The notes beneath the pieces were generated by a model. That model was not told the origin of the DNA. It was given only the letters and a program-made list of their open reading frames with translations, and did no database searches. A stretch of DNA of 64,000 bases from Candidatus Aenigmatarchaeota archaeon (GTDB taxonomy: Archaea; Aenigmatarchaeota; Aenigmatarchaeia; GW2011-AR5): positions 1,777-65,776 of the forward strand of contig JBHOSK010000001.1 in NCBI GenBank assembly GCA_042584825.1, in the 5' to 3' direction. The position numbers and the translations under genes were made by a program. Below, one piece after another: positions 9 to 56,855 of this stretch; the first letter of the stretch is position 1; the number at the start of each line of letters is the position of its first letter.

Positions 9-1409
9 ATGATGGTAGAAATTGCAAAAACACAAGAAGATGAAGTAGGAGATGGTACAACAACAGCAGTTATTATAGCAGGCGAAATTCTAAAAAAAGC
101 AGAAAATCTTATGGAACAAAACATACATCCTACAATGATTATTCGTGGTTTTAGAGTAGGAAAAACGCAAGCACTTTCTTTCTTAGAAGAATTATCAGAA
201 AAAGTCGACATAAATAGCAGAGAAACACTAGAAAAAATAGCAATGACAGCAATGACAGGAAAAGGAAGTGAAGCAGCAATGGAATCTTTAGGAAAAATTG
301 CTGTTGAAGCAATACAGACAATTTCAGAAAAAGATGAAAATGGTATTACTGTAGATAAAGATAGTATAAAAATTGAAAAGAAACAAGGCGGTAGCATAAA
401 TGATACAGAACTAATAAAAGGTATTGTAATAGATAAAGAAGTTATCCATCCAAGCATGCCAAAGAAAGTAAAGAGCGCAAAAATAGCATTGCTCGATGCT
501 GCTATGGAAATAAAGGAAACAGAAACAAACGCAGAAATAAGAATAACAGATCCAAACCAATTACAGGCATTTGTTGAACAAGAAAGTAAAATGATAAAAA
601 AAATGGTACAAAAAGTAATAGATTCTGGTGCTAATGTTGTTTTCTGTCAAAAAGGTGTTGATGATTTAGCACAACACTACCTTGCAAAACAAAAAATAGC
701 TGTTGCAAGAAGAGTAAAGAAAAGTGATATGGAAAAACTTGCAAAAGCAACCGGAGCAAGAATAATATCAAGTATAGAAGAACTTGAAAAAGACGATCTT
801 GGATTTGCAGGATTAGTAGAAGAAAAGAAAATAGCAGGCGAAGAAATGATCTTTGTTGAAGAATGCAAGGATCCAAAAGCCGTTTCAATTCTAGTTCGTG
901 GTGGAACAGAACACGTTGTAGACGAAGCAAAAAGAGCAATGGACGACGCGGTTCTTGGAATAGTAGCAGCACTGGAAACAGGAAAAGTTGTCTACGGTGG
1001 TGGCGCTATTGAAATCGAACTATCAAGAAGATTGAAAAAATTCGCAGAAACAGTCGGTGGCCGCGAACAACTTGCTATTAACGCATTAGCAGAAGCAATT
1101 GAAATCGTACCAAGAACACTTGCAGAATCAACAGGAAAAGATCCAATTGACATTCTAGTTGAGTTAAGAACATCACACGAAAAAGGTGACGCTGGCCATG
1201 GTATAGATGTTATAAATTCAAAAATATCAGACATGAAAACTCTTGGTGTTGTAGAACCACTTAAAATTAAAACACAGGCAATAAAATCAGCTTCAGAAGC
1301 AGCTGAAATGATTCTGAGAATTGATGATGTTATAACATCAAGATCTGGTGGTGCACCAGCAATGCCTCCAGGAATGGGCGGCATGGGCGGAATGCCTGGA
1401 ATGGAGTAA
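9..1409 (+). CDS. ths: Thermosome (group II chaperonin) subunit, N-terminally truncated by the window edge
   Basis: Equatorial/apical chaperonin motifs (GDGTTT, VRGGTEHVVDE) and the C-terminal GGMGGMPGM tail typical of thermosomes. Confidence 0.9.
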   Translation: MMVEIAKTQEDEVGDGTTTAVIIAGEILKKAENLMEQNIHPTMIIRGFRVGKTQALSFLEELSEKVDINSRETLEKIAMTAMTGKGSEAAMESLGKIAVEAIQTISEKDENGITVDKDSIKIEKKQGGSINDTELIKGIVIDKEVIHPSMPKKVKSAKIALLDAAMEIKETETNAEIRITDPNQLQAFVEQESKMIKKMVQKVIDSGANVVFCQKGVDDLAQHYLAKQKIAVARRVKKSDMEKLAKATGARIISSIEELEKDDLGFAGLVEEKKIAGEEMIFVEECKDPKAVSILVRGGTEHVVDEAKRAMDDAVLGIVAALETGKVVYGGGAIEIELSRRLKKFAETVGGREQLAINALAEAIEIVPRTLAESTGKDPIDILVELRTSHEKGDAGHGIDVINSKISDMKTLGVVEPLKIKTQAIKSASEAAEMILRIDDVITSRSGGAPAMPPGMGGMGGMPGME

Positions 1410-1508
1410 GTTTTTCTTATTTTTTATTCCTCTTTCTTTTTTATTTAATTTCAAAAAAACCTATTTATACTGTAATGAAAATATAATTTATATACAGGTG
1501 TTATTCGC

Positions 1509-1913
1509 ATGGAAGATGAGTATGAACTTATTCCTTTGAGTCCAATTAGGAGACTAGAAAAAAGGCTTCAAAAGGTAGAAAAGAACGCAACCACAGGGGA
1601 AGTACTAGGAGAATTAATGGATATTATAAAAACAAACCAGCAAGTAGTTGATCATATGGCAAAAACAAACTCGATGCTCATAAACAGAATTACAGATTTA
1701 TCAAATGTAGTGGAAAAAATGATCACAAAGGTTGATGATTTTATTGAAAGAATTGAAACAGGCGAATCAGAAGAAGAGGAAAAGAAATCATCAGAAGAGG
1801 AAAACAAATTGAATGAAAGATTAGCTAAACTCGAAAAAAGATTAAATTCAACGCTTCTGACACAAATGGCAAAGACAGGAGCAGTTCCTAGAAGACCAAC
1901 CCCAATAGTATAG
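1509..1913 (+). CDS. Hypothetical coiled-coil protein with acidic C-terminus, first gene of the pilus-like locus
   Basis: Heptad-like KLEKRLxK repeats and a Glu-rich stretch; no recognisable family. Confidence 0.35.
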   Translation: MEDEYELIPLSPIRRLEKRLQKVEKNATTGEVLGELMDIIKTNQQVVDHMAKTNSMLINRITDLSNVVEKMITKVDDFIERIETGESEEEEKKSSEEENKLNERLAKLEKRLNSTLLTQMAKTGAVPRRPTPIV

Positions 1914-1940
1914 TTGTTTTATTTTTTAATTATTGTTTAA

Positions 1941-2531
1941 ATGTTGATGAAAATGAAAGGCCAACAAGATGTATTGTCGACAATTCTAATTTCAGGTATA
2001 CTTATAGCAGTAGTCGGATCAGTGTATTTCTGGGGAGTACCCCTTATAGAGAAGAATCAAGACATATCGATACTACAAAACTCAGAAGATTTTATGAATA
2101 GTTTAAATTCTAAAATAAAGTTTATTGCCAACAATGGTGGAAAAGACCAACTAAGAATAACTATACCAGGAACGCTAGAGATATCTGGTGAAGAAATACA
2201 AATGACCGTGGACACAAAAGGAACAATATACGCAGCTGAAGCCGAAATTCCTTTAGGAAGAAATGAATGTCCTAGAGTAGATGGGGTATGGGGATTACAC
2301 GAATCCCATGTATTTTGCGTAAAAAGCAATAAAATAGATGACACCAAAATAACAACAACATATTCTTTGAAATACATCGAACTCGATGCACCCGATTCTG
2401 GAAAAAAATACAAAATAGAAGCTACCGGAGAGTCTATTGGTAGTACAGAGAGAACAGTTGTTATAGAAAATCTGGGAATTTTTGAAGAAAGTGGGATAAC
2501 AAAAACAAGATTAAGATTAGATATAGTATAG
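1941..2531 (+). CDS. Archaeal type IV pilin-like protein (class III signal peptide)
   Basis: N-terminus MLMKMKG|QQDVLSTILISGILIAVVGSVYFW: short basic stretch, Gly at -1, then a ~20-aa hydrophobic helix, as in prepilin peptidase substrates. Confidence 0.5.
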   Translation: MLMKMKGQQDVLSTILISGILIAVVGSVYFWGVPLIEKNQDISILQNSEDFMNSLNSKIKFIANNGGKDQLRITIPGTLEISGEEIQMTVDTKGTIYAAEAEIPLGRNECPRVDGVWGLHESHVFCVKSNKIDDTKITTTYSLKYIELDAPDSGKKYKIEATGESIGSTERTVVIENLGIFEESGITKTRLRLDIV

Positions 2532-2566
2532 AAAATTTATTAATTCTAGAAAACAAATTAAATATA

Positions 2567-2995
2567 ATGAAAGGACAGCATAGAATAATAAGAGAGATTT
2601 TTTTATTCGCTATAGGTGTCGCAATAACGAGCTTTATTGTACTTTCTTTCAACAATGTTCAATATGCTACAAATAAACTAGCAATGAACGATCAGATGAC
2701 CTCTGTTTCCAATCTTGTAACATCAGGAATAATAAAAGCCACAGAATCTGAAGAATCCATAATTAGGATAGAAATACCAGAAAAAATGTCAGGAGAAACT
2801 TATATAATAAATATTGATGGTAATGATGGCGAAATTATAGTATCACTTTTTGATGATCCGAGTATAAATTTGACAAAAAAAATCTTTAATATTAATCAAG
2901 ACTATTTTATGACAGGTAACGTAATAAGTACAGCCAGATTTTTTGAAATAACTAGAGAAGGGAATAACATAAAAATAAAGAGGTCTGTGATATGA
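2567..2995 (+). CDS. Archaeal type IV pilin-like protein (class III signal peptide)
   Basis: N-terminus MKG|QHRIIREIFLFAIGVAITSFIVL follows the prepilin pattern. Confidence 0.5.
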   Translation: MKGQHRIIREIFLFAIGVAITSFIVLSFNNVQYATNKLAMNDQMTSVSNLVTSGIIKATESEESIIRIEIPEKMSGETYIINIDGNDGEIIVSLFDDPSINLTKKIFNINQDYFMTGNVISTARFFEITREGNNIKIKRSVI

Positions 2996-4803
2996 AGTTT
3001 AAATTTAAAACAGGAAAAGGATCCATACATCTTAATCTGAAAGAAAAGAAAGAGGAAAAGAAAGACGATATAAATATAGGACATTTTGCAACACCCATTG
3101 CAGGATCAAAAGGTGGGCTTAATATACCAGGCTTACAGTCAACAATAGGCGGGGTATCATTTGGTGGCGGTGGTGAAACACCGAGCTTTGAGGACTCAAA
3201 GGAGCTTACAATAAAAGGAATAGGGTTACCCGACTTTAAATCAGATGTCGAATCAGAACTAATAGAAAAAGAATTCAAGTTAACAGAAGAAGAAACTACA
3301 GGAGAATTGAAAACAATAAACATAAAATACCCACTTATTCCTAAAAATCCTAAACAGGGTGAAACAGTGTACGCATACACCCATATTTTTTGGGATGATC
3401 AATTACGTGAACTTGTTTATCATCTAATAGAACCAAAAATAGATGAAAGTGTTAGTGAAAAAATAATGGATATTAAAAATTATATTGAAGAAAAAATAGA
3501 TATCGATTTTTCATCTGTAAGAAAAAAAGAAGCAGTTGAATATTTGGAAAAAATATTCAAAAAATCAGTTGAATATTTCGGTATAAGAAAAGATCAATAT
3601 GATATATTAAAATATTTCATATTCAGGGATTTCATAGGTTTAGAAAAAATAGAGCCAATGCTCAATGACAGATATATAGAAGATATATCTTGTGATGGAA
3701 TAAATATACCAATATACGTTTATCATAGAGATCCTAAAATAGGTTCTATAAGAACAAACATAAGTTTTGATTCTGGAGATGAAGTAGATTCTTTTGTAAA
3801 CAAACTTGCAGAGAGAACAGGAAAAGTTATATCTGTAGCAAAACCACTATTAGACGGAACACTTCCTGATGGGTCCAGGGTACAAGCAACACTAGGAAGT
3901 GATATAGCTCGTCAAGGATCAAATTTTACAATTAGAATGTTTACAGAGAGACCGATGACACCAACAGATATGATATTGTTTAACACATGTAACATAAAAA
4001 CAATGGCCTATCTTTGGTTTTTAATCGAACACGGCGCAAGCATATTAATTTCTGGTGGAACCGCAACAGGAAAAACAACACTATTGAATGTGCTATCACT
4101 ATTCATTAAACCACAAATGAAAATTGTAAGCATTGAAGATACAGCAGAACTAAGATTACCACACTCACACTGGATTCCTGAGGTTGCAAGATCAGCTGTA
4201 TCTGATGAGACTGGAAAAGGGAATGTTGACATGTTCGACTTACTTCGTGAATCACTAAGACAAAGACCCGATCATATCATTGTAGGAGAAGTACGAGGTA
4301 AAGAAGCATATGTTCTATTCCAACAGATGGCTGTAGGTCATCCAGGAATATCTACAATACACGCCGAAAGCTTCCCTAAATTAATTGATAGATTAACCAC
4401 ACAGCCAATAAATCTTACAGCAAGCCTTATTCAGAATCTTGATATAATTATTTTTACAAAAAGAATAAAGAAAGGTAACAAATATGTGAGAAGAATAAAC
4501 AATATTCTCGAGGTTCTTGGTTATGATAGAAAGACAAAATATCCTAAAGTTAACCAACTATTTAAATGGAGCCCAAAAACAGATTCAATTGACGCTGTAG
4601 GTAATAGCGTTCTTATGAAAAAAGTGTCAGAACTATTAAACAAAAATGATAACGAAATAAAAGAAGAAATAATAAAAAGATCAAAAGTTCTCGAATGGAT
4701 GGTAGCGAACAATGTTAGAGATTATGTGAAAATAGGTAAAATATTAAACATGTTTTATAACTCATCCGAGATGTTGATGGAGAGAATAGAGGCTAGTGTA
4801 TGA
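2992..4803 (+). CDS. Type II/IV secretion ATPase of the FlaI/ArlI/PilB family, with a ~100-aa Gly-rich N-terminal extension
   Basis: Walker A GGTATGKTTLLN, Asp/His boxes (IEDTAELRL ... VGEVRGKEA) typical of archaeal FlaI/VirB11-like ATPases; stop overlaps the next gene. Confidence 0.85.
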   Translation: MKFKFKTGKGSIHLNLKEKKEEKKDDINIGHFATPIAGSKGGLNIPGLQSTIGGVSFGGGGETPSFEDSKELTIKGIGLPDFKSDVESELIEKEFKLTEEETTGELKTINIKYPLIPKNPKQGETVYAYTHIFWDDQLRELVYHLIEPKIDESVSEKIMDIKNYIEEKIDIDFSSVRKKEAVEYLEKIFKKSVEYFGIRKDQYDILKYFIFRDFIGLEKIEPMLNDRYIEDISCDGINIPIYVYHRDPKIGSIRTNISFDSGDEVDSFVNKLAERTGKVISVAKPLLDGTLPDGSRVQATLGSDIARQGSNFTIRMFTERPMTPTDMILFNTCNIKTMAYLWFLIEHGASILISGGTATGKTTLLNVLSLFIKPQMKIVSIEDTAELRLPHSHWIPEVARSAVSDETGKGNVDMFDLLRESLRQRPDHIIVGEVRGKEAYVLFQQMAVGHPGISTIHAESFPKLIDRLTTQPINLTASLIQNLDIIIFTKRIKKGNKYVRRINNILEVLGYDRKTKYPKVNQLFKWSPKTDSIDAVGNSVLMKKVSELLNKNDNEIKEEIIKRSKVLEWMVANNVRDYVKIGKILNMFYNSSEMLMERIEASV

Positions 4804-5657
4804 GCTATGCAGCCTTTGCGGCCGGGATTTTTGGAAAATTTACAAAAAATCTTAGTATACACTTTCTAGATATAAGAGAAGATTTGCATAGAGCAAACAT
4901 GAACTATACGATAGATGAATATCTATCTATGGCAATTTTAACAACAGTAATTACATATATTTCTGAAATGTTTCTATTATCATTCATATTCGCTTTATTT
5001 ATTGATCCTATTTTAGCAGTGCCTCTATCATTTACATTATCTATGGGATTAAGCTCATTCATATTCTTTTTGTTTTATTCATATCCAGCAACACTATCCA
5101 GAAACAGAAGCAATAAAATTAAAAAAGTACTGCCTTTTGCAATATCATATTTAGGCTCATTGGCAAGTTCCAAACTACCACCAATAACAATGTTTAAAAC
5201 ACTGGCAACATTCAAAGAATATGGAGAAATAGCAAAAGAAGCCGACACAATTGTAAGAAATGTAGAATTATTTGGAATGAGTTTTTCTAACGCACTGAAA
5301 AGACAGGCAAAAAGGACACCATCAGCAGAATTCAGCGATTTTCTTTGGGGATTGAATACAATATCAACATCGGGTGGTAGTATGGTAACATACCTATCCC
5401 AGAAATCAAACGAAATGATGAATGATTATAAAAGACGAATTAGAAAATATTCACAAGATCTTTCACTTTACGTCGAAATATATCTTACCCTGGTAATAAC
5501 AGGATCAATATTTTTCATAGTTTTATCATCAGTAATAACAACACTATCAGGAGGTACAGGTACAATTGCACTTCAAACATTCGTGGTTTTCCTTCTATTA
5601 CCACTGTTATCAATAGGCTTTATTGTGTTAATAAAATCAGCCTCACCAACCGAATAA
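4800..5657 (+). CDS. FlaJ/TadC-like polytopic membrane platform protein, first half (one GspF-like domain)
   Basis: Multiple TM helices flanking a cytoplasmic GspF-like segment (ISYLGSLASSKLPP...MFKTLATF...); overlaps the ATPase stop codon. Confidence 0.65.
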   Translation: MSYAAFAAGIFGKFTKNLSIHFLDIREDLHRANMNYTIDEYLSMAILTTVITYISEMFLLSFIFALFIDPILAVPLSFTLSMGLSSFIFFLFYSYPATLSRNRSNKIKKVLPFAISYLGSLASSKLPPITMFKTLATFKEYGEIAKEADTIVRNVELFGMSFSNALKRQAKRTPSAEFSDFLWGLNTISTSGGSMVTYLSQKSNEMMNDYKRRIRKYSQDLSLYVEIYLTLVITGSIFFIVLSSVITTLSGGTGTIALQTFVVFLLLPLLSIGFIVLIKSASPTE

Positions 5658-5720
5658 CTCGTGTTCTTAGGAAATTACACAAAAGGTAAACTTTTTTATT
5701 AGGTAAAACAAGGTAGTTAT

Positions 5721-6659
5721 ATGAATGAACGCAAAGTTTTAGTTATATCTGCAATCATATTTGCAATATTACTGGTATCGGCATTTATTTTCATGGATAA
5801 TTTAGCAATATCTACTAATTTACTTATCGCAGGAGTTATGGTGTTGATATTCCCTTATTATATATTCAAATTTTTCCAATACAAAAGACTGAAAGCATAT
5901 GAAAAACATTTTCCAAATTTTCTAAGAGATCTCGCAGAATCACAACGAGCAGGACTGACAATATTACAGGCTATAAAAAATTCAGCAAAATCAGATTATG
6001 GTTCACTTACAGACGAAGTTAGAAAATTACATCATCAAGTAAGTTGGAACATACCTCTTGATAAAGCGATAAGCAACATCATGAATAGGATGAAAGGAAG
6101 TCGAACGATTAGAAGAGCATTTATGATAATATCCCAAGCACAAAGATCAGGAGGAAACATAGAAAATACAATGGACGCATTAGCTAACAATATAGAGAAT
6201 ATACGAGAAGTTCAGGAAGAAAAAGCAACACTACTAAATCAACAAGTAATAATGATGTATGCAATATTTTTCATATTTCTTGGAATAAGTATGGCACTGA
6301 TTAAGTTTATGATACCTCTTTTACAAACACAAGTTGAAACACAATCATCAGCATTCGGTATTGGAGATTTCCAGGCAAATCCATGTTTACCTTGTTTAGA
6401 AACACAAAACTTTGCTTGTATAGGGTGTAATGTATTTTTTGGTGTATCAAACGCATTTGATTTTGGATCAGTCGATGACCCCGCGGCGTACTATAGGTCG
6501 TTATTCTTCACTATGGTAATAGTACAGGGGTTCTTTTCGGGGCTTATTGCTGGACAAATTGGTTCAGATTCTGTATTAGCTGGTGTAAGACACTCCCTAA
6601 TAATGCTAGTAGTAGGGTTTTTCTCGTTTATCATAACAACGAGGATAGGAATAATATAG
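5721..6659 (+). CDS. FlaJ/TadC-like polytopic membrane platform protein, second half (second GspF-like domain)
   Basis: Cytoplasmic FPNFLRDLAESQRAGLTILQAI...segment between TM helices; Cys-rich loop ANPCLPCLETQNFACIGC. Confidence 0.65.
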   Translation: MNERKVLVISAIIFAILLVSAFIFMDNLAISTNLLIAGVMVLIFPYYIFKFFQYKRLKAYEKHFPNFLRDLAESQRAGLTILQAIKNSAKSDYGSLTDEVRKLHHQVSWNIPLDKAISNIMNRMKGSRTIRRAFMIISQAQRSGGNIENTMDALANNIENIREVQEEKATLLNQQVIMMYAIFFIFLGISMALIKFMIPLLQTQVETQSSAFGIGDFQANPCLPCLETQNFACIGCNVFFGVSNAFDFGSVDDPAAYYRSLFFTMVIVQGFFSGLIAGQIGSDSVLAGVRHSLIMLVVGFFSFIITTRIGII

Positions 6660-6674
6660 AAGTTTTCTGTAAGT

Positions 6675-7175
6675 GTGATCAATATGAGTAAAAAAGGTAT
6701 AACAAATTTTGAATTTGTATTAGCACTCTTCGTATTTTTGAGTACAGTATCCTTTGTCGCAATTACAATAATAAACAAAGTTCCTAATATTCACATGGAT
6801 GCTGTTGGTGATGAAATAAAAACCTCATCATACTACATTTCACAAATGCTTATGTTTGATGAAGGACTTCCAGTGGACTGGGAAACCCTACCAGATCCAG
6901 AAAATATACAAAGGTTTGGATTTTCTTCAGGAAATTATTATGAAATAGATACCAACAAACTAGCGGCGTTTCAGGCCCTGTGCCTTACAGAAACAGGAAG
7001 AACCAAAATAATCGAAGAATTAGGATACATGATAATAAACATTTCAGAAACAGACGGTACAACAAGACTTTATTGTGATGTTGGTAGTCCAATTTTGGAT
7101 TTCAATTTACAGAGACACGCATTCCTACCAGCACCCGACAATGAAGTTATAAATATAAATATAGCAGCGGGATGA
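6675..7175 (+). CDS. Archaeal type IV pilin-like protein (class III signal peptide)
   Basis: N-terminus MINMSKKG|ITNFEFVLALFVFLSTVSFVAI with Glu at +5. Confidence 0.5.
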   Translation: MINMSKKGITNFEFVLALFVFLSTVSFVAITIINKVPNIHMDAVGDEIKTSSYYISQMLMFDEGLPVDWETLPDPENIQRFGFSSGNYYEIDTNKLAAFQALCLTETGRTKIIEELGYMIINISETDGTTRLYCDVGSPILDFNLQRHAFLPAPDNEVININIAAG

Positions 7176-8284
7176 TTATGAAAGGTATAATAAGAATATT
7201 CGAAGCAATAATAGCTTCTGTAATTTTACTGACAACAATGTCGTTTTTCTTTACGTCACAATTTCTACCAGAGACTGAAGATTATTTTCTTCCAGTAGAA
7301 GCACACGATCTTATGGGAGCGCTTTACGTTAGTCAACAACTGGAAAATTATTTAATCAATAACGATAAGGAATCCTTAATGCTCGTTGCAAATGATACGT
7401 TACCACCAACAACGGGATTTTCCTTTGGCATTTCAGGAACACCCGGAAACAACATATATGTAGCATGCAACTGCACCGATACAGAATTAGTTGATGTAAG
7501 AAGGATGCTAAATATTACATTAACATCACCATGGACTTTTAATTTTATATACAAAGAAAGAGACATAACAATACACCTAGAACAAATTGATATGGAAGAT
7601 TCAATACCAGATCAAACCAACATAATAATTTTCTACACCTACCAGGATTTGTCACCATACAGAGATATAATAGATACATTTCTAGAATCTGGTGGCAGCC
7701 TAATTATGATATCTAATCTAGATCAGACCCAAACTGAAAACGAAGTTATGAATGAAATATTTGGTTTAGAATGGAATAATTTGCCGCCTGCTTCACCAGG
7801 AACCTTTTATGAAATAGATGATCCTGTAAATACATCGTTTAAAATATACAGTTATTTCACAGGAACCACCCAAGACTATGAAGATATTTTAATTGAAGGA
7901 ACTTTTGAAAATAATATTTTTGATGAACTTTCTAGAGTATCAGTTAACAATAGAACAATAATTCAAGACAATAATGGTGACAATTCATTCGTAAAGATAA
8001 AAGACAATATCGCAGACAACGGAAAAGGAAAATCTGTTTGGTTAGCAGAATATACCATATACCAAGAAGATGATTTACCCAACATAAATAAAACATACCA
8101 CGTAAACGATATGCTTAGAGCTACGATAATGTGGGCTTCTAGTGATTATTATAATATGGATTATCCAGTTGAGAAACCAACACCAGACAAAAAAATAAAA
8201 ACAAGCGTTTTAAGTGCTGGCCACGGCACCAATTTTGATCCATTTGAAGCATTTTTAACAACGTGGAGAATATTCTTCTTCTAG
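7172..8284 (+). CDS. Large pilin-like / pilus-associated protein (class III signal peptide)
   Basis: N-terminus MIMKG|IIRIFEAIIASVILLTTMSFFF; long Asn/Thr-rich extracellular region; start overlaps the previous gene. Confidence 0.45.
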   Translation: MIMKGIIRIFEAIIASVILLTTMSFFFTSQFLPETEDYFLPVEAHDLMGALYVSQQLENYLINNDKESLMLVANDTLPPTTGFSFGISGTPGNNIYVACNCTDTELVDVRRMLNITLTSPWTFNFIYKERDITIHLEQIDMEDSIPDQTNIIIFYTYQDLSPYRDIIDTFLESGGSLIMISNLDQTQTENEVMNEIFGLEWNNLPPASPGTFYEIDDPVNTSFKIYSYFTGTTQDYEDILIEGTFENNIFDELSRVSVNNRTIIQDNNGDNSFVKIKDNIADNGKGKSVWLAEYTIYQEDDLPNINKTYHVNDMLRATIMWASSDYYNMDYPVEKPTPDKKIKTSVLSAGHGTNFDPFEAFLTTWRIFFF

Positions 8285-8363: not shown

Positions 8364-9986
8364 TTGGTGATATTGTTGATTAAAAAAACAGCTGAAGATT
8401 TTGCAAAAGAACAAAAGGAAATAAGTGTCAGTGAATTTTTTGAAAAAAATAAGCATCTTTTAGGATTTGATAATCCTACTAAGGCATTATTGATGGCAGT
8501 AAAAGAAGCTGTAGATAATTCACTTGACGCAACAGAAGAAGCCGGTATCCTACCTGATATTGGTGTAAGGATAAAACAAACAGGTGAAGACAAACACAGA
8601 GTAAGTATCCAAGACAACGGACCGGGTATTGTGAAACAACACATACCAAACATATTTGGTAAACTATTATACGGAAGTAAATTTCATCGTTTAAGACAAT
8701 CAAGGGGTCAACAAGGTATAGGTATAAGTGCAGTTCTACTATACTCCCAATTAACTACAGGAAAATCAACCAAGGTTTGGTCAAGAATAGGAAAAGACAA
8801 ACCAATGAATTATTACGAACTTTTAATGAACACAATGAAAAATGAACCACAGATTATTAAAGAAGAACTGGTTGATAATGGTTTTGAAAACGGCACAAAA
8901 GTCCAATTAGAACTATTAGGAAGATATAGAAAAACGCAAAGTGTTGGTGATTATATAAAACAAACATCAATTGCAAACCCCTTTGCAAAAATTTCATATA
9001 CTGGTCCCGATGGAGTAAGAAAAACGTTCCCAAGAAGTGTTAATGAATTGCCAACCCCACCAAGAGAAATAAAAATACATCCGTATGGTGTTGAGTTTGG
9101 AGTTCTATTAAGAATGCTAGGTAGAACAAAAACAAAAACAATACAGGCTTTCTTGACAAATGAATTTTCATCAATAGGTGCAACATCAGCAAAAGAAATA
9201 TGTAAAGTAGCAAAACTTAAACCGAACGAAAAACCAGGATCATTAGAAAGAGAATCTATAGAAAAACTAATAAGAGGAATGCAGAAAGTAAAAGTTCAGC
9301 GTCCTCCTTTAGATTGTTTATCTCCTATTGGAGATATAGAATTTGAAAAAAGTTTAAGAAAAGAATATCCAGATGCAGAATTTATAGCAACCGGTGTTCG
9401 TGAACCAAGTGTTTACAAAGGAAACCCATTCCAAATAGAAGTTGGAATTGTTTATGGTAAGAAGCAGGATAAAATAGACGACGATGATGAAGATGTAATA
9501 GAAGATAGAAATCAGATAAAGATAATGCGATTTGCAAACAGAGTACCACTGCTTTATCAAGCAGGTGCGTGTGCAACCATCGAATCAATTAAAACAACGG
9601 CGTGGAAAAGATACGGTCTCACACAATCAGGAAATAACATACCATATGGACCAATGATATTGGTTATTCACATGTGTTCTGTTTGGGTACCATTTATATC
9701 AGAAAGTAAAGAAGCAATTGCACCATATCCTGAAATTGTTAAGGAGATGAGATTAGCTATTCAAGACACGGGAAGAAAACTGTCTCGTTATTTATCTGGT
9801 AAACGTCGTGCAGGCGAACAACAAAGAAGAATACAAATATTCGAAAGATATTCTTCAGAAGTTGCAACTGCAGTATCAGTTTTGACAGAAAAAGACAAAA
9901 AAATGATAGAAAAGAAAATGCAAGATTTAGTTAAAAGTAGATCAAAATCAAAAGAAACAGGTGAAAAAAATGAAAACCAAGAGTGA
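8364..9986 (+). CDS. top6B: DNA topoisomerase VI subunit B
   Basis: GHKL ATPase motifs (EAVDNSLDA, IQDNGPGI), H2TH and transducer regions; precedes and overlaps top6A. Confidence 0.9.
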   Translation: MVILLIKKTAEDFAKEQKEISVSEFFEKNKHLLGFDNPTKALLMAVKEAVDNSLDATEEAGILPDIGVRIKQTGEDKHRVSIQDNGPGIVKQHIPNIFGKLLYGSKFHRLRQSRGQQGIGISAVLLYSQLTTGKSTKVWSRIGKDKPMNYYELLMNTMKNEPQIIKEELVDNGFENGTKVQLELLGRYRKTQSVGDYIKQTSIANPFAKISYTGPDGVRKTFPRSVNELPTPPREIKIHPYGVEFGVLLRMLGRTKTKTIQAFLTNEFSSIGATSAKEICKVAKLKPNEKPGSLERESIEKLIRGMQKVKVQRPPLDCLSPIGDIEFEKSLRKEYPDAEFIATGVREPSVYKGNPFQIEVGIVYGKKQDKIDDDDEDVIEDRNQIKIMRFANRVPLLYQAGACATIESIKTTAWKRYGLTQSGNNIPYGPMILVIHMCSVWVPFISESKEAIAPYPEIVKEMRLAIQDTGRKLSRYLSGKRRAGEQQRRIQIFERYSSEVATAVSVLTEKDKKMIEKKMQDLVKSRSKSKETGEKNENQE

Positions 9987-11058
9987 AAAAAGAATTAACG
10001 AACGATTGAAAAAAATGGGTGACGATATACTGGCACACATTGAAAAAAAAGAAAATCCTAATTTAGAAATACCTCTACGTACACTATCCAATGTAATTTT
10101 TGATAAAAATACCCACACACTCAGACTTGGTGATAAAGCATCAAAAAGATATTTTTTCAATGTTGCACATTCTAAAAAATTCATGCAGACTTTAATGGTG
10201 GCTGCATTTTGTAAAAGTTTAAGAGCTGAGGATATACACGCAAGTATCAGAGAAATGTATTACAGTTTAAAGAGAACACTATCCGAAAGTAAGGAAAACA
10301 CCTTTGATGAACAATCAGAATCAGACCCAGTTATTATAGATCTCGAAGTTGCATTAGACGTGATAAGAGAAAATCTTCATTTAACTGCTGATAGACGAGG
10401 TTCTGTTGCTGGTAATGGAAGTATTGTAGATAGAGGAGATACAATAGACTGGTCGAAACTAGGAAGTGGTGGTTGGTCAATACCATCAACAACAAATGAA
10501 ATTGGGATAAATAAAATGAATGCAGATTTTGTTTTAGTAATCGAGAAAAACGCAGCATTTGATAGATTAAATGAAGACAAATTTTGGAAAAAACATAAGT
10601 GTATCTTAATAGGTACACAAGGTCAACCATCTCGTGGTGCACGTCTTCTGATACAACGACTAAATCAAGAAGCAAAATTACCTGTTTACGTTATGACAGA
10701 TGCAGATTCTTATGGGTTTTATATTTATTCTGTTATAAAATCGGGATCTATTGGTCTAGCGCATGTATCTGACAGAATATCAACACCAGCAGCCAAATTC
10801 ATAGGACTTACAATGTCAGACATATACGATTTTGATCTAAAAAATGTTACAATAAAGGCAAGAGAAAGGGACATAAAACGTGCTAAAGAACTAATGAATT
10901 ATGAATGGTTCAAAAAACCAGAATGGCAAAGAGAATTAAAATTAATGATCAAGAAAGGAGTAAAGGCAGAGATTGAAGCTTTAGCAAACAAAAGTCTAAA
11001 ATTCCTAACAGAAGACTATTTGCCAGAAAAAATCAAAAACAAAGAATTTTTAGATTAA
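9961..11058 (+). CDS. top6A: DNA topoisomerase VI subunit A (Spo11-like)
   Basis: Winged-helix/5Y-CAP and TOPRIM domain (VMTDADSYGFYI); true start may be an internal Met near 10015. Confidence 0.9.
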   Translation: MKKMKTKSEKRINERLKKMGDDILAHIEKKENPNLEIPLRTLSNVIFDKNTHTLRLGDKASKRYFFNVAHSKKFMQTLMVAAFCKSLRAEDIHASIREMYYSLKRTLSESKENTFDEQSESDPVIIDLEVALDVIRENLHLTADRRGSVAGNGSIVDRGDTIDWSKLGSGGWSIPSTTNEIGINKMNADFVLVIEKNAAFDRLNEDKFWKKHKCILIGTQGQPSRGARLLIQRLNQEAKLPVYVMTDADSYGFYIYSVIKSGSIGLAHVSDRISTPAAKFIGLTMSDIYDFDLKNVTIKARERDIKRAKELMNYEWFKKPEWQRELKLMIKKGVKAEIEALANKSLKFLTEDYLPEKIKNKEFLD

Positions 11059-20564: not shown

Positions 20565-20663
20565 GCTCCTGTCGTCTAGCCCGGCCCATTGCCGTTTTTG
20601 GCTAAGTCGAAAGGATATGAGCCTTTCGAGCTCAGGACGCGGGTTCGAATCCCGCCGGGAGCA
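20565..20663 (+). tRNA. tRNA-Glu (anticodon TTC) with a ~24-nt insertion (candidate non-canonical intron) in the D-arm
   Basis: Acceptor gctcctg/cgggagc; the 5' part gtctagcccggccca matches the archaeal tRNA-Glu D-arm; anticodon stem tgagc/gctca with loop cTTTCga; T-arm gcgggttcgaatcccgc. The 99-nt length needs an extra ~24 nt (ttgccgtttttggctaagtcgaaa) between D-loop and D-stem. Confidence 0.6.
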
Positions 20664-47011: not shown

Positions 47012-47078
47012 ATATTAAAATATCAAACCTTTTATTCATATGCAACGACGATCGGTTATATTATAGGTTATATATAAT

Positions 47079-47162
47079 GCGGGGGTGTCCGAGCGGCCAA
47101 AGGAGCAAGGTTGAGGGCCTTGTGGGTTAGTCCCTACGCGAGTTCGAACCTCGTCTCCCGCA
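47079..47162 (+). tRNA. tRNA-Leu (anticodon GAG)
   Basis: Acceptor gcggggg/ctcccgc, anticodon stem caagg/ccttg with loop ttGAGgg, long variable arm, T-arm gcgagttcgaacctcgt. Confidence 0.75.
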
Positions 47163-47206
47163 AATTCCCCTAATTTTTCATCATGTTTTATATACACAAA
47201 GTTTAA

Positions 47207-49431: not shown

Positions 49432-51144
<1,713 letters not shown>

Positions 51145-51236
51145 ATTTTTTTATTCAATTTTTCTCATCGGAGTAAAAATTGAAAAATACGACACGTGTG
51201 CAATAAGCTAATTGACTTCCGTCAATTAGCGGATCA

Positions 51237-52190: not shown

Positions 52191-53642
52191 TTACATATCC
52201 ATCCATTTTGGTCCAAACTTATTTTTTTTCTTATCACGTTTTGAATGATATGATCCACCACCAGTATATGCAGGATTTGATGAAGAGTATGTTTGTTCAC
52301 CACCGTATGTCAATCCTTCTGGAACATCAACTTTACCTTTATACCCCTGATCAGTTTCTGATGTTTTAATTTTCGTTGTCTCGGGTTTCCACAATTTGAA
52401 TAATTGTTTATCAAATTCCAAAAAAGCCTTTACCACGTGTTTAATATTAGCCGGCTTAAATCCCGTTTGAAAGCTCCACAAAACCTTTCTTTCTTTTGTA
52501 TCAATTGCATAAAGGTTTGCATCACCACCACCAAAATATAAAACACCGTTCACAATCAACGGCGATGATATTATAATATCACCAGTATCAAATTTCCATA
52601 CAAGTTTTCCATTTTCACCTATACAATACATAGAACCGTCAATAGACGCAACATATATCTTATTGTCATGGAAAATGGGTGTGTTGGTTATTGGACCATC
52701 AGCTTCGAACTTCCAGTTAAGCTTACCATCATAAGTTACAGAGTAAACATGCCTGTCAAAAGAAGAAAAATAAATATTTTTATTATCTAATAGCCCATGA
52801 CTACCAGTCATACCATCTGTTATAAATTTCCATTTAATTTCTCCATTAAGATCAGTACAATAAAAATTATTGTCACGCGAACCAAAATAAACAAAACCGT
52901 TTTCTGTTTTTGGACTTTTTTTATGTGATCGGTCTCTAAAATTCCATATTTCATTACCACGTTCATCAGCAATGACAGGAGAACCAAACCCACCAACAAA
53001 ATTTCCAGCAATAACTTCCCATTTCTTTGCCCCGTCAGGAGACAAACAATAGAATTTTTTATCAAAAGAACCAAAGTAAATATCATTATTTACAACAGCA
53101 GGAGAATTAACAATAGCATCACCAGTAATGAATTCCCATTTTTTCTCACCGCCCGTAGACAAACAATAAAATTTTTTGTCACCAGAACCAAAATATACTC
53201 TATCTTCAACAACACAGGGTGATGAAACTATTCTGTGACCAGTTTTGAATTTCCATAATAACTTCCCTTCAAGTGTCAATGCGTATAGAAAACCATCATA
53301 AGAACCAAAATATACAACACCATCGTGAATAACAGCAGATGAAAATATTACATCCCCAGCTATAAACTTCCACAACTCCTTTCCTGTTTCAGCAGAAAGT
53401 GCATAAAAGTTCTTGTTGCATGCGCCAAAATAAATCACGCCATTATGATAAATAGGAGTAGCCCAAATATTACCGCCTTGCGGCATATCATATGAATTAT
53501 CAAAAGTAGAAAAATCGTGTTTTGGAATTTCTTCCTTCACCCTTTCAATTGCATAATATTTTGTTTCCTCTTCTGGGCTTGGTTGTTCTTCCTTTTGCCT
53601 ACTATCCCTATACCCATCCATAATTATCACATATCCATCCAT
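52191..53642 (-). CDS. PQQ-repeat beta-propeller protein (paralogue 2) with conserved basic Gly/Ser/Tyr-rich C-terminal tail
   Basis: Eight or more repeats of the type LWKFxTG..I.SSP.I.....YFGS.D..FYAL; no N-terminal signal peptide; C-terminal 50 aa nearly identical to the upstream paralogue. Confidence 0.7.
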   Translation of the reverse strand: MDGYVIIMDGYRDSRQKEEQPSPEEETKYYAIERVKEEIPKHDFSTFDNSYDMPQGGNIWATPIYHNGVIYFGACNKNFYALSAETGKELWKFIAGDVIFSSAVIHDGVVYFGSYDGFLYALTLEGKLLWKFKTGHRIVSSPCVVEDRVYFGSGDKKFYCLSTGGEKKWEFITGDAIVNSPAVVNNDIYFGSFDKKFYCLSPDGAKKWEVIAGNFVGGFGSPVIADERGNEIWNFRDRSHKKSPKTENGFVYFGSRDNNFYCTDLNGEIKWKFITDGMTGSHGLLDNKNIYFSSFDRHVYSVTYDGKLNWKFEADGPITNTPIFHDNKIYVASIDGSMYCIGENGKLVWKFDTGDIIISSPLIVNGVLYFGGGDANLYAIDTKERKVLWSFQTGFKPANIKHVVKAFLEFDKQLFKLWKPETTKIKTSETDQGYKGKVDVPEGLTYGGEQTYSSSNPAYTGGGSYHSKRDKKKNKFGPKWMDM

Positions 53643-56010: not shown

Positions 56011-56095
56011 AACCTTTTAATACGGTCGAGCATGAATTCTTAGTATGAAGTTTATGATTATAGCAATAACAATTGCATCTATATTATTAATTAGT
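56011..56095 (+). repeat. Direct repeat copy 1 (upstream region plus signal-peptide coding of the Kazal lipoprotein genes)
   Basis: aaaaccttttaatacggtcgagcatgaattctta..atgaagtttatgattatagcaata recurs at 56771..56855 with 2-3 mismatches. Confidence 0.7.
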
Positions 56096-56770
56096 GGATG
56101 CACTACACAACCCAATAATGATGAAAACAGTGCAGCAAGATCAGCAATGGAAATTGGATGGTTATTTGATATTGATTCTGGTGAAAAATACTTTGTAAGT
56201 ATTGGTTATTATCAAAACATAATGGACAAGGTTTATACACAAGAAGAAATAATTCAACTTAGTGGTAGCTTAGAACCAACAATAACTCACACACAAGAAG
56301 AATGGCTTGCAAGTTGTGAAGAATTACAATTACAAATGTACGTAAGAGAATGTTCAGAAGAAGGATGGCAAACAGAATGTTCTGGAAGTAATGAAAAACC
56401 ATGTCTAAGCTCTTTTGAATATTGGCAAAGCATGTGCGAATCAGCCAATGCTCGTGCAAGAAGTTGCATGGATCATCAATATTGGTATTATGAACCAATC
56501 TTAATTCAATACATGGAAGAAAACGGAATCGAAGGTGAAATAATTGATGCTGTTGTGGCTTATTTCCCAATAACTGGTACAGGTTTACATCCAGGAACTT
56601 ATGGCGATAACAGAATATATTGTCAAGAAGACCAAAGAGGTGTAGGTGCTTGTACAATGGATTACACACCAGTTTGTGGTTTCTCAGATGACGGGTCAGA
56701 AACCTATTCTAATGGCTGTGTTGCATGCACCAACGAGAACGTAAATTACTACATTCCAGGCGAATGCTGA
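56045..56770 (+). CDS. Lipoprotein with C-terminal Kazal-type inhibitor-like domain (paralogue 1)
   Basis: Signal peptide with ISGC lipobox; C-terminal C...YTPVCGFSDDGSETYSNGCVAC...C matches the Kazal Cys/PVCG/TY.N.C spacing. Confidence 0.55.
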   Translation: MKFMIIAITIASILLISGCTTQPNNDENSAARSAMEIGWLFDIDSGEKYFVSIGYYQNIMDKVYTQEEIIQLSGSLEPTITHTQEEWLASCEELQLQMYVRECSEEGWQTECSGSNEKPCLSSFEYWQSMCESANARARSCMDHQYWYYEPILIQYMEENGIEGEIIDAVVAYFPITGTGLHPGTYGDNRIYCQEDQRGVGACTMDYTPVCGFSDDGSETYSNGCVACTNENVNYYIPGEC

Positions 56771-56855
56771 AAACCTTTTAATACGGTCGAGCATGAATTC
56801 TTATCATGAAGTTTATGATTATAGCAATAGCAATTGCGTCTATATTAATAATAAG
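56771..56855 (+). repeat. Direct repeat copy 2 (tandem duplication junction of the Kazal lipoprotein genes)
   Basis: See copy 1. Confidence 0.7.

What the first reader, a model, noticed from the sequence alone, without database searches (positions are those of the whole stretch)
1509..8284. Compact type IV pilus-like locus with four prepilin-like genes, a FlaI/PilB-type ATPase and a split platform protein
Nine co-directional, mostly overlapping genes:
- a coiled-coil protein;
- four proteins starting M(x)K/KKG followed by a ~20-aa hydrophobic helix (class III signal peptides);
- a FlaI/VirB11-type ATPase with a ~100-aa Gly-rich N-terminal extension;
- the FlaJ/TadC platform encoded as two ORFs.

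No FlaH/KaiC-like or FlaB gene is present, so this looks like an adhesion/attachment pilus rather than an archaellum. In a small-genome archaeon such a pilus is a plausible host-attachment structure. The 370-aa Asn/Thr-rich pilin (7172..8284) could be a tip adhesin.
Basis: partly seen in the sequence, partly recalled or inferred. Interest (0 to 1): 0.6.

Follow-up and report, generated by a model that had tools for sequence, protein, structure and literature searches.

The report
Type IV pilus-like operon, DPANN archaeon
This is a real, conserved eight-gene operon for a type IV pilus-like surface filament in a small-genome Aenigmatarchaeota (DPANN) archaeon; loci of this kind, including the coiled-coil gene, are already described for DPANN as candidate host-contact machinery, so it is a good but ordinary find.

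Summary
There are eight genes, not nine, and they are tightly packed rather than mostly overlapping. The Gly-rich ATPase N-terminus is not conserved in orthologues.

**The eight genes**
- A cytoplasmic coiled-coil protein.
- Four prepilin-like proteins, each with a conserved MKG leader and a ~20-25-residue hydrophobic helix.
- A FlaI/GspE-family ATPase with intact catalytic motifs.
- A FlaJ/TadC platform encoded as N-half and C-half genes.

**Conservation.** The whole cluster keeps the same order in 11 other Aenigmatarchaeota loci, so the split platform is not a frameshift.

**Not an archaellum.** No archaellin, FlaH, FlaF or FlaG was detected, and the ATPase scores below NCBIfam's FlaI cut-off.

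**Closest relatives**
- The ATPase is closest to A. fulgidus GspE and carries the PilB3-like C-terminal domain.
- Two pilin families match the haloarchaeal DUF7289 and DUF7266; the other two match DUF7287 and DUF7288 only weakly.
- These four DUFs sit together behind a pilB/pilC pair in a Halobaculum plasmid.
- The four proteins are therefore more likely accessory (minor) pilins than the filament shaft.

**The 370-aa protein.** It belongs to a large family (612 cluster representatives). Larger members carry concanavalin-A-like lectin domains, which fits an adhesin role.

**Not found or not tested.** No prepilin peptidase and no PilA-like pilin lies in the window. Function is untested.

**Prior art.** Hamm et al. 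2024 already reported such loci across DPANN.

The parts
1461..1500 (+). Putative archaeal promoter and ribosome-binding region: A-run then TATA-like ctatttata (1461-1469), a second AT-rich box (1480-1495), and AGGTG (1496-1500) 8 nt before the ATG
   Evidence: Read directly from the sequence. This is inference only; no archaeal promoter tool was available.
1509..1913 (+). cc134: 134-aa cytoplasmic coiled-coil protein, first gene of the cluster. It has a conserved N-terminal EEYExxPxxPIRxxEKR motif and a C-terminal KLEKRxN motif, and no TM segment.
   Evidence: Alignment A1 has 20 invariant columns. 225 homologues were found, and all named ones are Aenigmatarchaeota. Only generic coiled-coil hits appear in Pfam and PDB, including weak matches to DUF7310 and reovirus sigma-1. 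No TM segment.
1953..2531 (+). pil196: prepilin-like protein (ORF from 1941; likely start MKG|QQ at 1953), DUF7289-like
   Evidence: The KG|Q site is conserved in the family. All 8 of 8 orthologues hit DUF7289, and some database relatives carry PF23960 precomputed. The AF2 model has pLDDT 91.5, with helix 2-61 plus a beta-sandwich. hhalign against a haloarchaeal DUF7289 protein gives E 1e-4.
2567..2995 (+). pil142: prepilin-like protein, MKG|QH leader, DUF7266-like
   Evidence: K2, G3, Q4 and E10 are invariant. 9 of 10 orthologues hit DUF7266, best E 9e-6.
2992..4803 (+). ATPase603: FlaI/GspE-family secretion ATPase. Walker A at residues 355-362, Asp box 381-387, Walker B 425-435, His box 455-458. 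It has a variable, low-complexity N-terminal extension of about 110 aa and a PilB3-like C-terminal domain.
   Evidence: T2SSE E 2.8e-32 and PilB3_C 21.3 bits. Orthologues score 28-32 bits against a cut-off of 27. NCBIfam FlaI 403 bits, below the 550 cut-off. PDB 2OAP 385 bits. Motifs located; N-terminal variability shown.
4800..5657 (+). platN285: N-terminal half of a FlaJ/TadC-type platform (one T2SSF domain, about 4 TM segments)
   Evidence: T2SSF E 3.7e-16. It aligns to ArlJ model positions 5-249 of 555. It is a separate gene in all orthologous loci. TM scan.
5721..6659 (+). platC312: C-terminal half of the platform (one T2SSF domain, about 5 TM segments), with an invariant NPCxxC...CxxC loop between TM3 and TM4
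   Evidence: T2SSF E 8.8e-17. It aligns to ArlJ model positions 275-469 of 555. The alignment shows four invariant Cys.
6684..7175 (+). pil166: prepilin-like protein (ORF from GTG at 6675; MSKKG|ITNFE), with an acidic residue at +5 as in bacterial type IV pilins. The link to DUF7287 is tentative.
   Evidence: Orthologues begin MKG|FxxIEF. Only 1 of 7 hits DUF7287, at E 0.007. hhalign is not significant.
7178..8284 (+). pil370: large prepilin-like protein (ORF from 7172; MKG|IIRIFE). It has an N-terminal helix, a flavodoxin-like alpha/beta domain with a conserved CxC, and a variable C-terminal half. It is the candidate adhesin or cap subunit.
   Evidence: KG|F occurs in 118 and Glu at +6 in 135 of the 141 family members with a recognisable site. 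612 cluster representatives reach E<=1e-3. Larger members carry Laminin_G_3 or 3-keto-disaccharide-hydrolase (ConA-like) domains. The AF2 model has pLDDT 67.5 and is confident for residues 40-200. PDB Foldseek gives only generic Rossmann or flavodoxin matches. DUF7288 is hit by 2 of 6 orthologues, at the N-terminus only.

Best explanation
The locus is an operon for a type IV filament (archaeal type IV pilus-like) assembly machine in an Aenigmatarchaeota (DPANN) genome. It is most similar to the euryarchaeal 'clade 2 / System 2' machines.

**Shown from the sequence**
- An active-looking FlaI/GspE-type ATPase.
- A platform made of two polypeptides corresponding to the N- and C-halves of FlaJ/TadC.
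- Four membrane-inserted prepilin-like proteins with a three-residue MKG leader.
- A cytoplasmic coiled-coil protein.

**Inferred mechanism**
1. A class III signal peptidase encoded elsewhere cuts after the Gly.
2. The ATPase hexamer docks on the platN/platC heterodimer. It uses ATP to lift processed subunits out of the membrane into a helical filament.
3. The four locus-encoded subunits correspond to the haloarchaeal DUF7289, DUF7266 and, tentatively, DUF7287 and DUF7288 set. They act as the priming or tip complex.
4. The 370-aa subunit is exposed as the adhesive or cap module.
5. The shaft is built either from the 196-aa subunit or from a PilA-like pilin encoded in trans.
6. The coiled-coil protein is a cytoplasmic accessory or regulatory partner of the ATPase.

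The likely role is attachment to a host or surface.
For: **Domain assignments**
- Pfam and NCBIfam assign the ATPase and both platform halves.
- Catalytic motifs are intact.
- PDB ranking is AfGspE 385 bits, then FlaI 266, then CpaF 142.
- The PilB3_C domain is above threshold in orthologues and in haloarchaeal PilB-like ATPases, but absent from two other DPANN (Woesearchaeota-type) ATPases.

**Conservation**
- The eight-gene order is kept in 11 other Aenigmatarchaeota loci, including two with different flanks.

**Class III-type N-termini under strong constraint**
- KG|Q in 100 of the 112 members with a recognisable site in the 196-aa family.
- KG|F in 118 and Glu at +6 in 135 of the 141 members with a site in the 370-aa family.
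- A 3-residue leader is the mode in both families.

**Structure**
- The 196-aa protein has the pilin 'lollipop' fold at pLDDT 91.5.

**Link to the haloarchaeal pilin set**
- DUF7289 is hit by 8 of 8 orthologues and DUF7266 by 9 of 10.
- A Halobaculum plasmid carries, in order: a Pilin_N pilin, an ATPase, a platform, then DUF7287, DUF7288, DUF7261, DUF7266 and DUF7289.
- That locus shows the four DUFs form one accessory set next to a separate PilA-type pilin.

**Candidate shaft pilin in trans**
- PilA-like genes (KG|ISPLIAAVLL) lie about 5 kb upstream in L009 and L012/13.

**Adhesin evidence**
- Relatives of the 370-aa protein carry ConA-like lectin domains, and in another DPANN lineage they sit next to a T4P ATPase.

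**Literature**
- Conserved T4P-like loci with coiled-coil proteins are reported across DPANN, including Aenigmarchaeota. Several proteins of the corresponding Ca. Nanohaloarchaeum antarcticus loci were detected by proteomics (PMC11291902).
- LamG proteins are linked to T4P loci in DPANN (PMC5498576).
Against: - No prepilin peptidase and no PilA-like pilin lies in the 64-kb window or in any fetched locus flank checked for the peptidase motif.
- Links of the 166-aa and 370-aa proteins to DUF7287 and DUF7288 are weak: 1 of 7 and 2 of 6 orthologues, with hhalign poor or N-terminal only.
- The window's own 370-aa protein has no recognisable lectin domain, and its residues 200-307 are modelled with low confidence.
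- Neither pilin head domain matches a solved pilin.
- No filament, expression or adhesion data exist for any Aenigmatarchaeota.
- The ATPase's clade was judged from pairwise scores, not a phylogeny.
Confidence: 0.72

Rival explanations
1. It builds only a short pseudopilus or a surface-display scaffold made solely from the four locus-encoded subunits. This would resemble a T2SS pseudopilus or the Sulfolobus bindosome. It would present or secrete proteins rather than form a long adhesive pilus.
For: - No small major-pilin gene lies in the locus or the window.
- All four subunits resemble an accessory set: they are heterogeneous in size (142-368 aa) and each has a differently placed conserved acidic residue.
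- The function of the homologous haloarchaeal PilB4-type system is unknown (PMC4371748).
Against: - PilA-like genes lie near the locus in some relatives, and a Pilin_N pilin sits next to the haloarchaeal counterpart.
- No SBP-type or secreted cargo genes are associated with the locus.
Confidence: 0.15
2. It is a DNA- or macromolecule-uptake or transfer pilus used to acquire material from a host. This would be analogous to competence pili or to the Ups pilus-mediated exchange.
For: - DPANN archaea depend on hosts.
- T4P-based DNA or metabolite exchange has been speculated for ARMAN Mia14 (PMC5498576).
- The locus sits next to DNA topoisomerase VI in most relatives, though this may be mere synteny.
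Against: - No ComEC/Ced-like channel, nuclease or DNA-binding pilin signature occurs among the eight proteins.
- The flanks differ in L012/L013 (HD and ParB), so the Topo VI linkage is not obligatory.
Confidence: 0.07
3. It is a reduced archaellum (motility filament).
For: The best NCBIfam models are FlaI (403 bits) and ArlJ (120 bits).
Against: - Both scores are well below the curated cut-offs of 550.
- No archaellin, FlaF/G, FlaH/KaiC or FlaCDE/X homologue is present.
- The ATPase is closer to the non-archaellar AfGspE than to FlaI.
- The platform is split, unlike ArlJ.
Confidence: 0.03
4. The two platform ORFs are a sequencing or assembly frameshift, or a pseudogene of a single FlaJ.
For: The two halves are adjacent, and together they cover the whole ArlJ model.
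Against: - Both are separate, full-length ORFs in every orthologous locus. Intergenic gaps vary and identity is 47-63%.
- Split platforms are documented for several archaeal systems (PMC4858521; bioRxiv 10.64898/2026.04.22.720090).
Confidence: 0.01

Closest known systems
Conserved type IV pilus-like loci with coiled-coil proteins in cluster-2 DPANN archaea (Hamm et al. 2024, Nat Commun 15:6449, PMC11291902), especially their 'Locus 1'
   Same: - Reported for Aenigmarchaeota among other DPANN.
- Contains a CpaF-type ATPase, TadC platform genes, FlaF/PilA-type filament proteins and a coiled-coil protein.
- Lists GroEL (chaperonin) as a neighbour; here a thermosome gene lies immediately upstream.
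- Their coiled-coil proteins resemble reovirus sigma-1, and the cc134 profile weakly hits sigma-1 (6GAJ/6GAO, E 0.04-0.1).
   Different: - I could not obtain their sequences, so homology of cc134 to their coiled-coil proteins is inferred, not tested.
- The part of that paper I read (main text and Fig. 4 legend) does not resolve the four pilin families, the split platform or the lectin-bearing relatives.
Euryarchaeal clade 2 / System 2 type IV pili, the variant with its own pilin set (Haloferax volcanii PilB4/PilC4-type; Makarova et al. 2016, PMC4858521)
   Same: - The ATPase has the PilB3-like C-terminal domain and is closest to A. fulgidus GspE.
- The pilin-like proteins match DUF7289 and DUF7266, and tentatively DUF7287 and DUF7288. 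These are encoded together after pilB/pilC in a Halobaculum plasmid.
- The two genes right after the platform are the candidate DUF7287-like and DUF7288-like genes (a weak assignment), matching the haloarchaeal order DUF7287 then DUF7288.
   Different: - The platform is two genes rather than one.
- The ATPase lacks the large haloarchaeal N- and C-terminal additions.
- The DUF7289-like and DUF7266-like genes lie upstream of the ATPase.
- No DUF7261 member is present.
- The DUF7288-like protein is twice as long, with an extra alpha/beta domain.
- There is an extra coiled-coil gene.
- No adjacent Pilin_N pilin is present.
Epd pilus / System 1 of Methanococcus maripaludis (EpdL ATPase, EpdJ and EpdK platform, EppA peptidase)
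   Same: - Two platform genes.
- KG|Q processing sites with Gln at +1 in two of the four subunits, as in EpdB, EpdC and EpdD (PMC4371748).
- Several minor pilins in the operon.
   Different: - No EppA peptidase, FleN/MinD or DUF2341 adhesin in the locus.
- No ~70-aa major pilins were seen.
- The ATPase scores far better against AfGspE and FlaI than against the Tad/CpaF type.
- An Epd ATPase reference was not available for a direct test.
Bacterial T2SS/T4P minor-pilin priming complexes (GspH-I-J-K; FimU-PilV-W-X with PilY1)
   Same: - Four heterogeneous pilin-like subunits are encoded with the machine.
- One is much larger and a candidate cap or adhesin.
- The G|F site and the Glu near +5 in two subunits recall bacterial pilins.
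   Different: No detectable sequence or fold homology. This is an analogy of logic only.

Membership tests
Type IV filament (TFF) assembly system, archaeal | Secretion ATPase of the VirB11/FlaI/GspE family with Walker A/B, Asp and His boxes | tested here: met
   T2SSE E 2.8e-32; 2OAP 385 bits; motifs at residues 355-458.
Type IV filament (TFF) assembly system, archaeal | Polytopic platform protein with two T2SSF domains (FlaJ/TadC/PilC) | tested here: met
   Two adjacent genes carry one T2SSF domain each, covering the N and C halves of ArlJ. This arrangement is conserved.
Type IV filament (TFF) assembly system, archaeal | At least one subunit with a class III (prepilin) signal peptide and an N-terminal hydrophobic helix | tested here: met
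   All four families have the K-G site plus an uncharged stretch of about 20-25 residues; family statistics are. The AF2 model shows a 60-residue N-terminal helix. FlaFind itself was not run.
Type IV filament (TFF) assembly system, archaeal | Class III signal peptidase (PibD/FlaK/EppA) in the genome | not testable with these tools
   None in the 64-kb window and no GxGDxK-motif membrane ORF in any held sequence. The other ~80 kb of the contig and the rest of the genome could not be read.
Archaellum | ATPase reaching the FlaI equivalog cut-off | tested here: not met
   NF058587 scores 403 bits against a cut-off of 550.
Archaellum | Archaellin (FlaA/B), FlaF/FlaG and FlaH (KaiC-like) genes in the locus | tested here: not met
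   No such Pfam or NCBIfam hits for any of the eight proteins. By contrast, the Woesearchaeota locus L010 does carry a KaiC-like gene.
Euryarchaeal clade 2 / System 2 T4P (PilB3/PilB4-like) | ATPase with the PilB3-like C-terminal domain and closest to clade-2 ATPases | tested here: inconclusive
   PilB3_C scores 21.3 bits in the window copy (cut-off 27), but 28.1 and 31.8 bits in orthologues and 31.5 and 33.3 in haloarchaeal PilB-like proteins. The best PDB hit is AfGspE. No phylogeny with arCOG references could be built.
Euryarchaeal clade 2 / System 2 T4P (PilB3/PilB4-like) | Cognate accessory pilin set (haloarchaeal DUF7287, DUF7288, DUF7266, DUF7289) | tested here: inconclusive
   DUF7289 is hit by 8 of 8 and DUF7266 by 9 of 10 orthologues, mostly below threshold. 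DUF7287 is hit by 1 of 7 and DUF7288 by 2 of 6. The haloarchaeal operon is confirmed.
Euryarchaeal clade 2 / System 2 T4P (PilB3/PilB4-like) | Single platform gene (as defined by Sivabalasarma & Albers 2026) | tested here: not met
   Two genes here. Makarova et al. 2016 nevertheless state that many clade 2 loci have two tadC-like genes.
Epd pilus / System 1 | Two platform genes and KG|Q (Gln +1) prepilins | tested here: met
   The platform is split. Gln at +1 is invariant in pil142 and present in 100 of the 112 pil196-family members with a recognisable site.
Epd pilus / System 1 | Clade 1 ATPase (Tad/CpaF-related), dedicated EppA peptidase, FleN/MinD ATPase and DUF2341 adhesins in the locus | tested here: not met
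   None of these genes is in the locus. The ATPase scores CpaF 142 bits and the TadA model 172 bits, against 385 for AfGspE and 403 for the FlaI model. No EpdL reference was available.
DPANN cluster-2 T4P-like locus with coiled-coil protein (Hamm et al. 2024) | T4P ATPase, TadC and filament genes next to a coiled-coil protein gene, conserved in Aenigmarchaeota, with a chaperonin neighbour for Locus 1 | tested here: met
   Gene content and the thermosome neighbour match; the paper's description is. Sequence homology of cc134 to their coiled-coil proteins was not testable because their sequences are not held.

The most novel reading that the evidence does not exclude
The 370-aa protein may define a DPANN-wide family of pilin-anchored, modular host-recognition subunits. 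In this reading, a conserved pilin helix and alpha/beta scaffold carry swappable lectin-type inserts that set host specificity. The four-subunit set, the two-piece platform and the lineage-specific coiled-coil protein would then form a dedicated host-contact organelle, distinct from ordinary adhesion pili.
Probability: 0.2. Interest if true: 0.6.

Novelty: new member of a known kind. Interest (0 to 1): 0.3.

Why it matters
DPANN archaea are thought to live attached to hosts, and the molecules that make the contact are largely unknown. This locus is a phylum-wide, vertically kept candidate for that contact apparatus in Aenigmatarchaeota, which have no cultured member as far as I know. The analysis here sharpens the published picture in four ways:
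- It ties the four pilin-like genes to a haloarchaeal accessory-pilin set.
- It shows the platform split is native.
- It identifies a large family of pilin-anchored proteins whose bigger members carry lectin domains.
- It indicates that the shaft pilin and the peptidase must be sought elsewhere in the genome.

None of this overturns current views.

Tried and rejected
- **Prepilin peptidase in the window.** A TM count of all ORFs of 110 aa or more, Pfam scans of the membrane proteins, and a GxGDxK motif scan of the window and all loci found nothing.
- **Other class III-type or PilA-like genes in the 64 kb.** None outside the locus.
- **Fold searches.**
  - Foldseek against PDB gave only generic Rossmann, flavodoxin or G-protein matches for the 370-aa model, and nothing for the 196-aa model.
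- **Profile searches of the pilin and coiled-coil families against PDB sequences.** No relatives beyond generic coiled coils.
- **hhalign of cc134 against the gene upstream of the haloarchaeal ATPase and against a coiled-coil gene near L012.** No relation.
- **hhalign of pil166 against a DUF7287 protein.** Not significant.
- **Literature search for the DUF names.** No papers.
- **Supplementary data of Hamm et al.** The table of loci is not held as searchable text.
- **Hypotheses rejected.** The archaellum, frameshift and recent-transfer ideas were considered and rejected. On transfer, GC content is 32-34% in the locus, as in most of the window apart from the rRNA-bearing stretches.

Full report
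**What is there.**
- The window comes from a low-GC (about 33%) Aenigmatarchaeota (DPANN) genome.
  - Its proteins are identical to NCBI entries with ACFLQN_ locus tags on a 143,942-bp contig.
  - The closest loci are all Aenigmatarchaeota MAGs.
- Between a thermosome gene (9-1409) and the topoisomerase VI B and A genes (8364-11058; B confirmed) lie eight co-directional genes:
  - cc134, 1509-1913;
  - pil196, 1941/1953-2531;
  - pil142, 2567-2995;
  - the ATPase, 2992-4803;
  - platN, 4800-5657;
  - platC, 5721-6659;
  - pil166, 6675/6684-7175;
  - pil370, 7172/7178-8284.
- Two junctions overlap by 4 nt, and a third does so only with the longer start. The remaining gaps are 15-63 nt.
- An AT-rich, TATA-like stretch and an AGGTG precede the first gene. 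This is inference only.
- GC content in the locus matches most of the window apart from the rRNA-bearing stretches.

**Is it more than chance?**
- All eight genes recur in the same order in nine genome loci (L001-L009).
  - ATPase identity is 53-60%.
  - Platform halves are 47-63% identical where full length.
  - Pilin-like proteins are 22-52% identical.
- The same cluster occurs in two more divergent loci with different flanks, HD and ParB (L012/L013).
- The platform is split in every case, so it is not a frameshift.
- The coiled-coil family has 225 database homologues and the pil196 family 137. Every named one is from Aenigmatarchaeota.

**The motor.**
- The 603-aa protein is a T2SSE-family ATPase (E 2.8e-32). 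It has Walker A, Asp box, Walker B and His box motifs.
- Against solved structures it ranks A. fulgidus GspE at 385 bits, S. acidocaldarius FlaI at 266 bits and CpaF at 142 bits.
- NCBIfam's FlaI model gives 403 bits, below its cut-off of 550.
- The C-terminal PilB3-like domain is sub-threshold in the window copy (21.3 bits).
  - It passes in two orthologues (28.1 and 31.8 bits against a cut-off of 27).
  - It passes in two haloarchaeal PilB-like ATPases.
  - It is absent from two other DPANN (Woesearchaeota-type) ATPases.
- The N-terminal extension is real but variable: 47-123 residues before the conserved YPLIP motif.
  - It is Gly-rich in only some genomes.
  - It carries a short basic motif at the very N-terminus.
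- platN and platC each carry one T2SSF domain. They align to the N- and C-halves of ArlJ/FlaJ models.
- platC has an invariant NPCxxC...CxxC loop between TM3 and TM4. From the position of the cytoplasmic T2SSF domain, this loop should face outward.

**The four pilin-like proteins.**
- In orthologues all four begin MKG followed by a long uncharged stretch.
- Among 120 pil196 relatives, 112 have a recognisable site. Of these:
  - 110 are K-G;
  - 100 have Gln at +1;
  - the modal leader is 3 residues.
- Among 157 pil370 relatives, 141 have a recognisable site. Of these:
  - 129 are K-G;
  - 118 have Phe at +1;
  - 135 have Glu at +6.
- pil142 has invariant K2, G3, Q4 and E10.
- pil166 orthologues read MKG|FxxIEF, with the acidic residue at +5 as in bacterial pilins.
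- KG|Q sites with Gln at +1 are the signature of M. maripaludis Epd pilins cut by EppA (PMC4371748).
- With a 44-sequence alignment, pil196 folds at pLDDT 91.5 into a helix spanning residues 2-61 plus a beta-sandwich. This is the pilin 'lollipop' shape.
- No solved pilin resembles its head domain.
- These are therefore class III-type prepilin N-termini, not Sec signals or plain anchors.

**What kind of system?**
- Scanning orthologues one by one against Pfam gave a consistent pattern:
  - pil196 matches DUF7289 in 8 of 8;
  - pil142 matches DUF7266 in 9 of 10;
  - pil166 matches DUF7287 in 1 of 7;
  - pil370 matches DUF7288 in 2 of 6, plus weak hits to ABC_transp_aux and DUF4350.
- A tblastn of the ATPase against plasmids found haloarchaeal megaplasmid loci.
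- In Halobaculum halophilum the gene order is:
  - a Pilin_N pilin;
  - a hypothetical gene;
  - a 989-aa ATPase;
  - a single 679-aa platform;
  - DUF7287, DUF7288, DUF7261, DUF7266 and DUF7289, all well above threshold.
- So these DUFs are one operon-encoded accessory-pilin set that accompanies a separate PilA-type pilin.
- Direct hhalign to single haloarchaeal proteins gave mixed results:
  - moderate for DUF7289 (E 1e-4 over 120 columns);
  - weak for DUF7266 (E 0.01);
  - N-terminal only for DUF7288;
  - nothing for DUF7287.
- I therefore treat two correspondences as supported and two as tentative.
- Split platforms are documented for several systems:
  - System 1 (Epd);
  - subsystems 4A and 4B;
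  - some DPANN loci (bioRxiv 10.64898/2026.04.22.720090);
  - many clade 2 loci.
- The locus thus combines a clade-2-like ATPase and pilin set with a two-gene platform and Epd-like KG|Q sites.
- It is not an archaellum: no archaellin, FlaF/G or FlaH homologue is present.

**The 370-aa protein.**
- An exhaustive profile search found 612 cluster representatives at E<=1e-3, of which 116 reach E<=1e-30. Nearly all full-length listed hits align from their first residues.
- The AF2 model has pLDDT 67.5 and pTM 0.66.
  - It shows the N-terminal helix, a helical region, and a confident three-layer alpha/beta domain (residues about 79-200) containing the invariant CxC.
  - Residues 200-307 are poorly modelled.
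- PDB Foldseek returns only generic flavodoxin, Rossmann or G-domain folds at E about 1e-2.
- Larger family members (about 500-600 aa) carry ConA-like domains: Laminin_G_3 (E down to 1e-34) or 3-keto-disaccharide-hydrolase. In most of them these lie within the C-terminal half, the region that is variable and poorly modelled in the window protein.
- In another DPANN lineage, such a member sits directly after a T4P ATPase (L016/L017). Another member is a stand-alone gene (L014).
- This supports a modular adhesin role for the family.
- The window's own copy has no recognisable lectin domain. It has six N-glycosylation sequons and only ordinary Asn/Thr content.

**What is missing.**
- No prepilin peptidase lies in the window or in any held sequence.
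- No PilA-like pilin lies in the window.
- In L009 and L012/13, a 150-aa gene starting KG|ISPLIAAVLL lies about 5 kb upstream. It hits Pilin_N at E 0.034 in L009.
- That gene is a candidate trans-encoded shaft pilin, mirroring the haloarchaeal layout.

**The coiled-coil protein.**
- cc134 has no TM segment, two conserved LEKR-containing ends and a coiled-coil middle.
- It gives only generic coiled-coil hits. DUF7310 is the most frequent Pfam hit, in 6 of 9 orthologues, but the best E is only 0.04. PDB hits include reovirus sigma-1 at E 0.04-0.1.
- I infer that it is a cytoplasmic partner of the ATPase. This is not shown.

**Prior knowledge.**
- Hamm et al. 2024 (PMC11291902) reported two conserved type IV pilus-like loci across cluster-2 DPANN, explicitly including Aenigmarchaeota.
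  - These loci also encode coiled-coil proteins resembling sigma-1.
  - Their Locus 1 has GroEL as a neighbour and FlaF/PilA-type filament genes.
  - Several of the encoded proteins were detected by proteomics in Ca. Nanohaloarchaeum antarcticus.
- Golyshina et al. 2017 (PMC5498576) described two T4P systems in ARMAN Mia14, one FlaK-like peptidase, and LamG proteins linked to T4P loci.

**Verdict.**
- The interpretation (a T4P-like adhesion system, not an archaellum) is supported at the level sequence analysis allows.
- Host attachment and the tip-adhesin role remain inference.
- Interest is moderate to low because the locus type is already published.
- The modest added value lies in three points:
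  - the link to the haloarchaeal accessory-pilin set;
  - the breadth and modularity of the 370-aa family;
  - the conserved four-Cys loop of the platform.

Noticed in passing
window 49432-51145 and 57574-60544: The 16S rRNA gene is 1714 nt against a 1478-nt Rfam model. At least one 43-nt insertion lies near model position 637; the rest was not inspected. The 16S gene is unlinked from the 23S gene, with 6.4 kb of protein-coding genes and a tRNA-Ala between them.
   Followed up: partly
window 5721-6659 (platC), residues ~205-225: An invariant NPCxxC...CxxC four-cysteine loop lies between TM3 and TM4 of the C-terminal platform half. It is predicted to face outside the cell and is conserved in all eight aligned sequences. 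It could form disulfides or bind metal at the site of filament assembly.
   Followed up: partly
window 52191-53642 and 53627-55057 (minus strand): Two tandem paralogous genes of about 480 aa encode PQQ/BamB-like beta-propeller proteins. They lie between the 16S and 23S rRNA genes.
   Followed up: partly
window 56045-56770 and 56806-57207: Two adjacent small proteins have near-identical N-termini (MKFMIIAI.IASIL.ISGCTTQPNN). This looks like a lipobox-type signal in an archaeon.
   Followed up: no
window 9-1409 and 8364-11058; L001-L009: The order thermosome, pilus locus, topoisomerase VI B/A is kept in most Aenigmatarchaeota loci fetched, but not in L012/L013. A haloarchaeal plasmid locus (L019) also has Topo VI B a few kb downstream of its pil genes, which may be coincidence.
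   Followed up: partly
L010 4000-12000 (Woesearchaeota MAG): A different DPANN pilus locus has a split platform followed by a KaiC/FlaH-like ATPase. Divergently transcribed are several pilin-like genes and an 842-aa protein starting MNKKAYYFTLDAFIAL, which looks pilin-anchored and may contain a vWA-type domain (not scanned against Pfam).
   Followed up: partly
window 20594-20663 and 47078-47163: One tRNA was called only by Rfam (20594-20663). A tRNA-Leu was called only by ARAGORN (47078-47163). The disagreement was not resolved.
   Followed up: no
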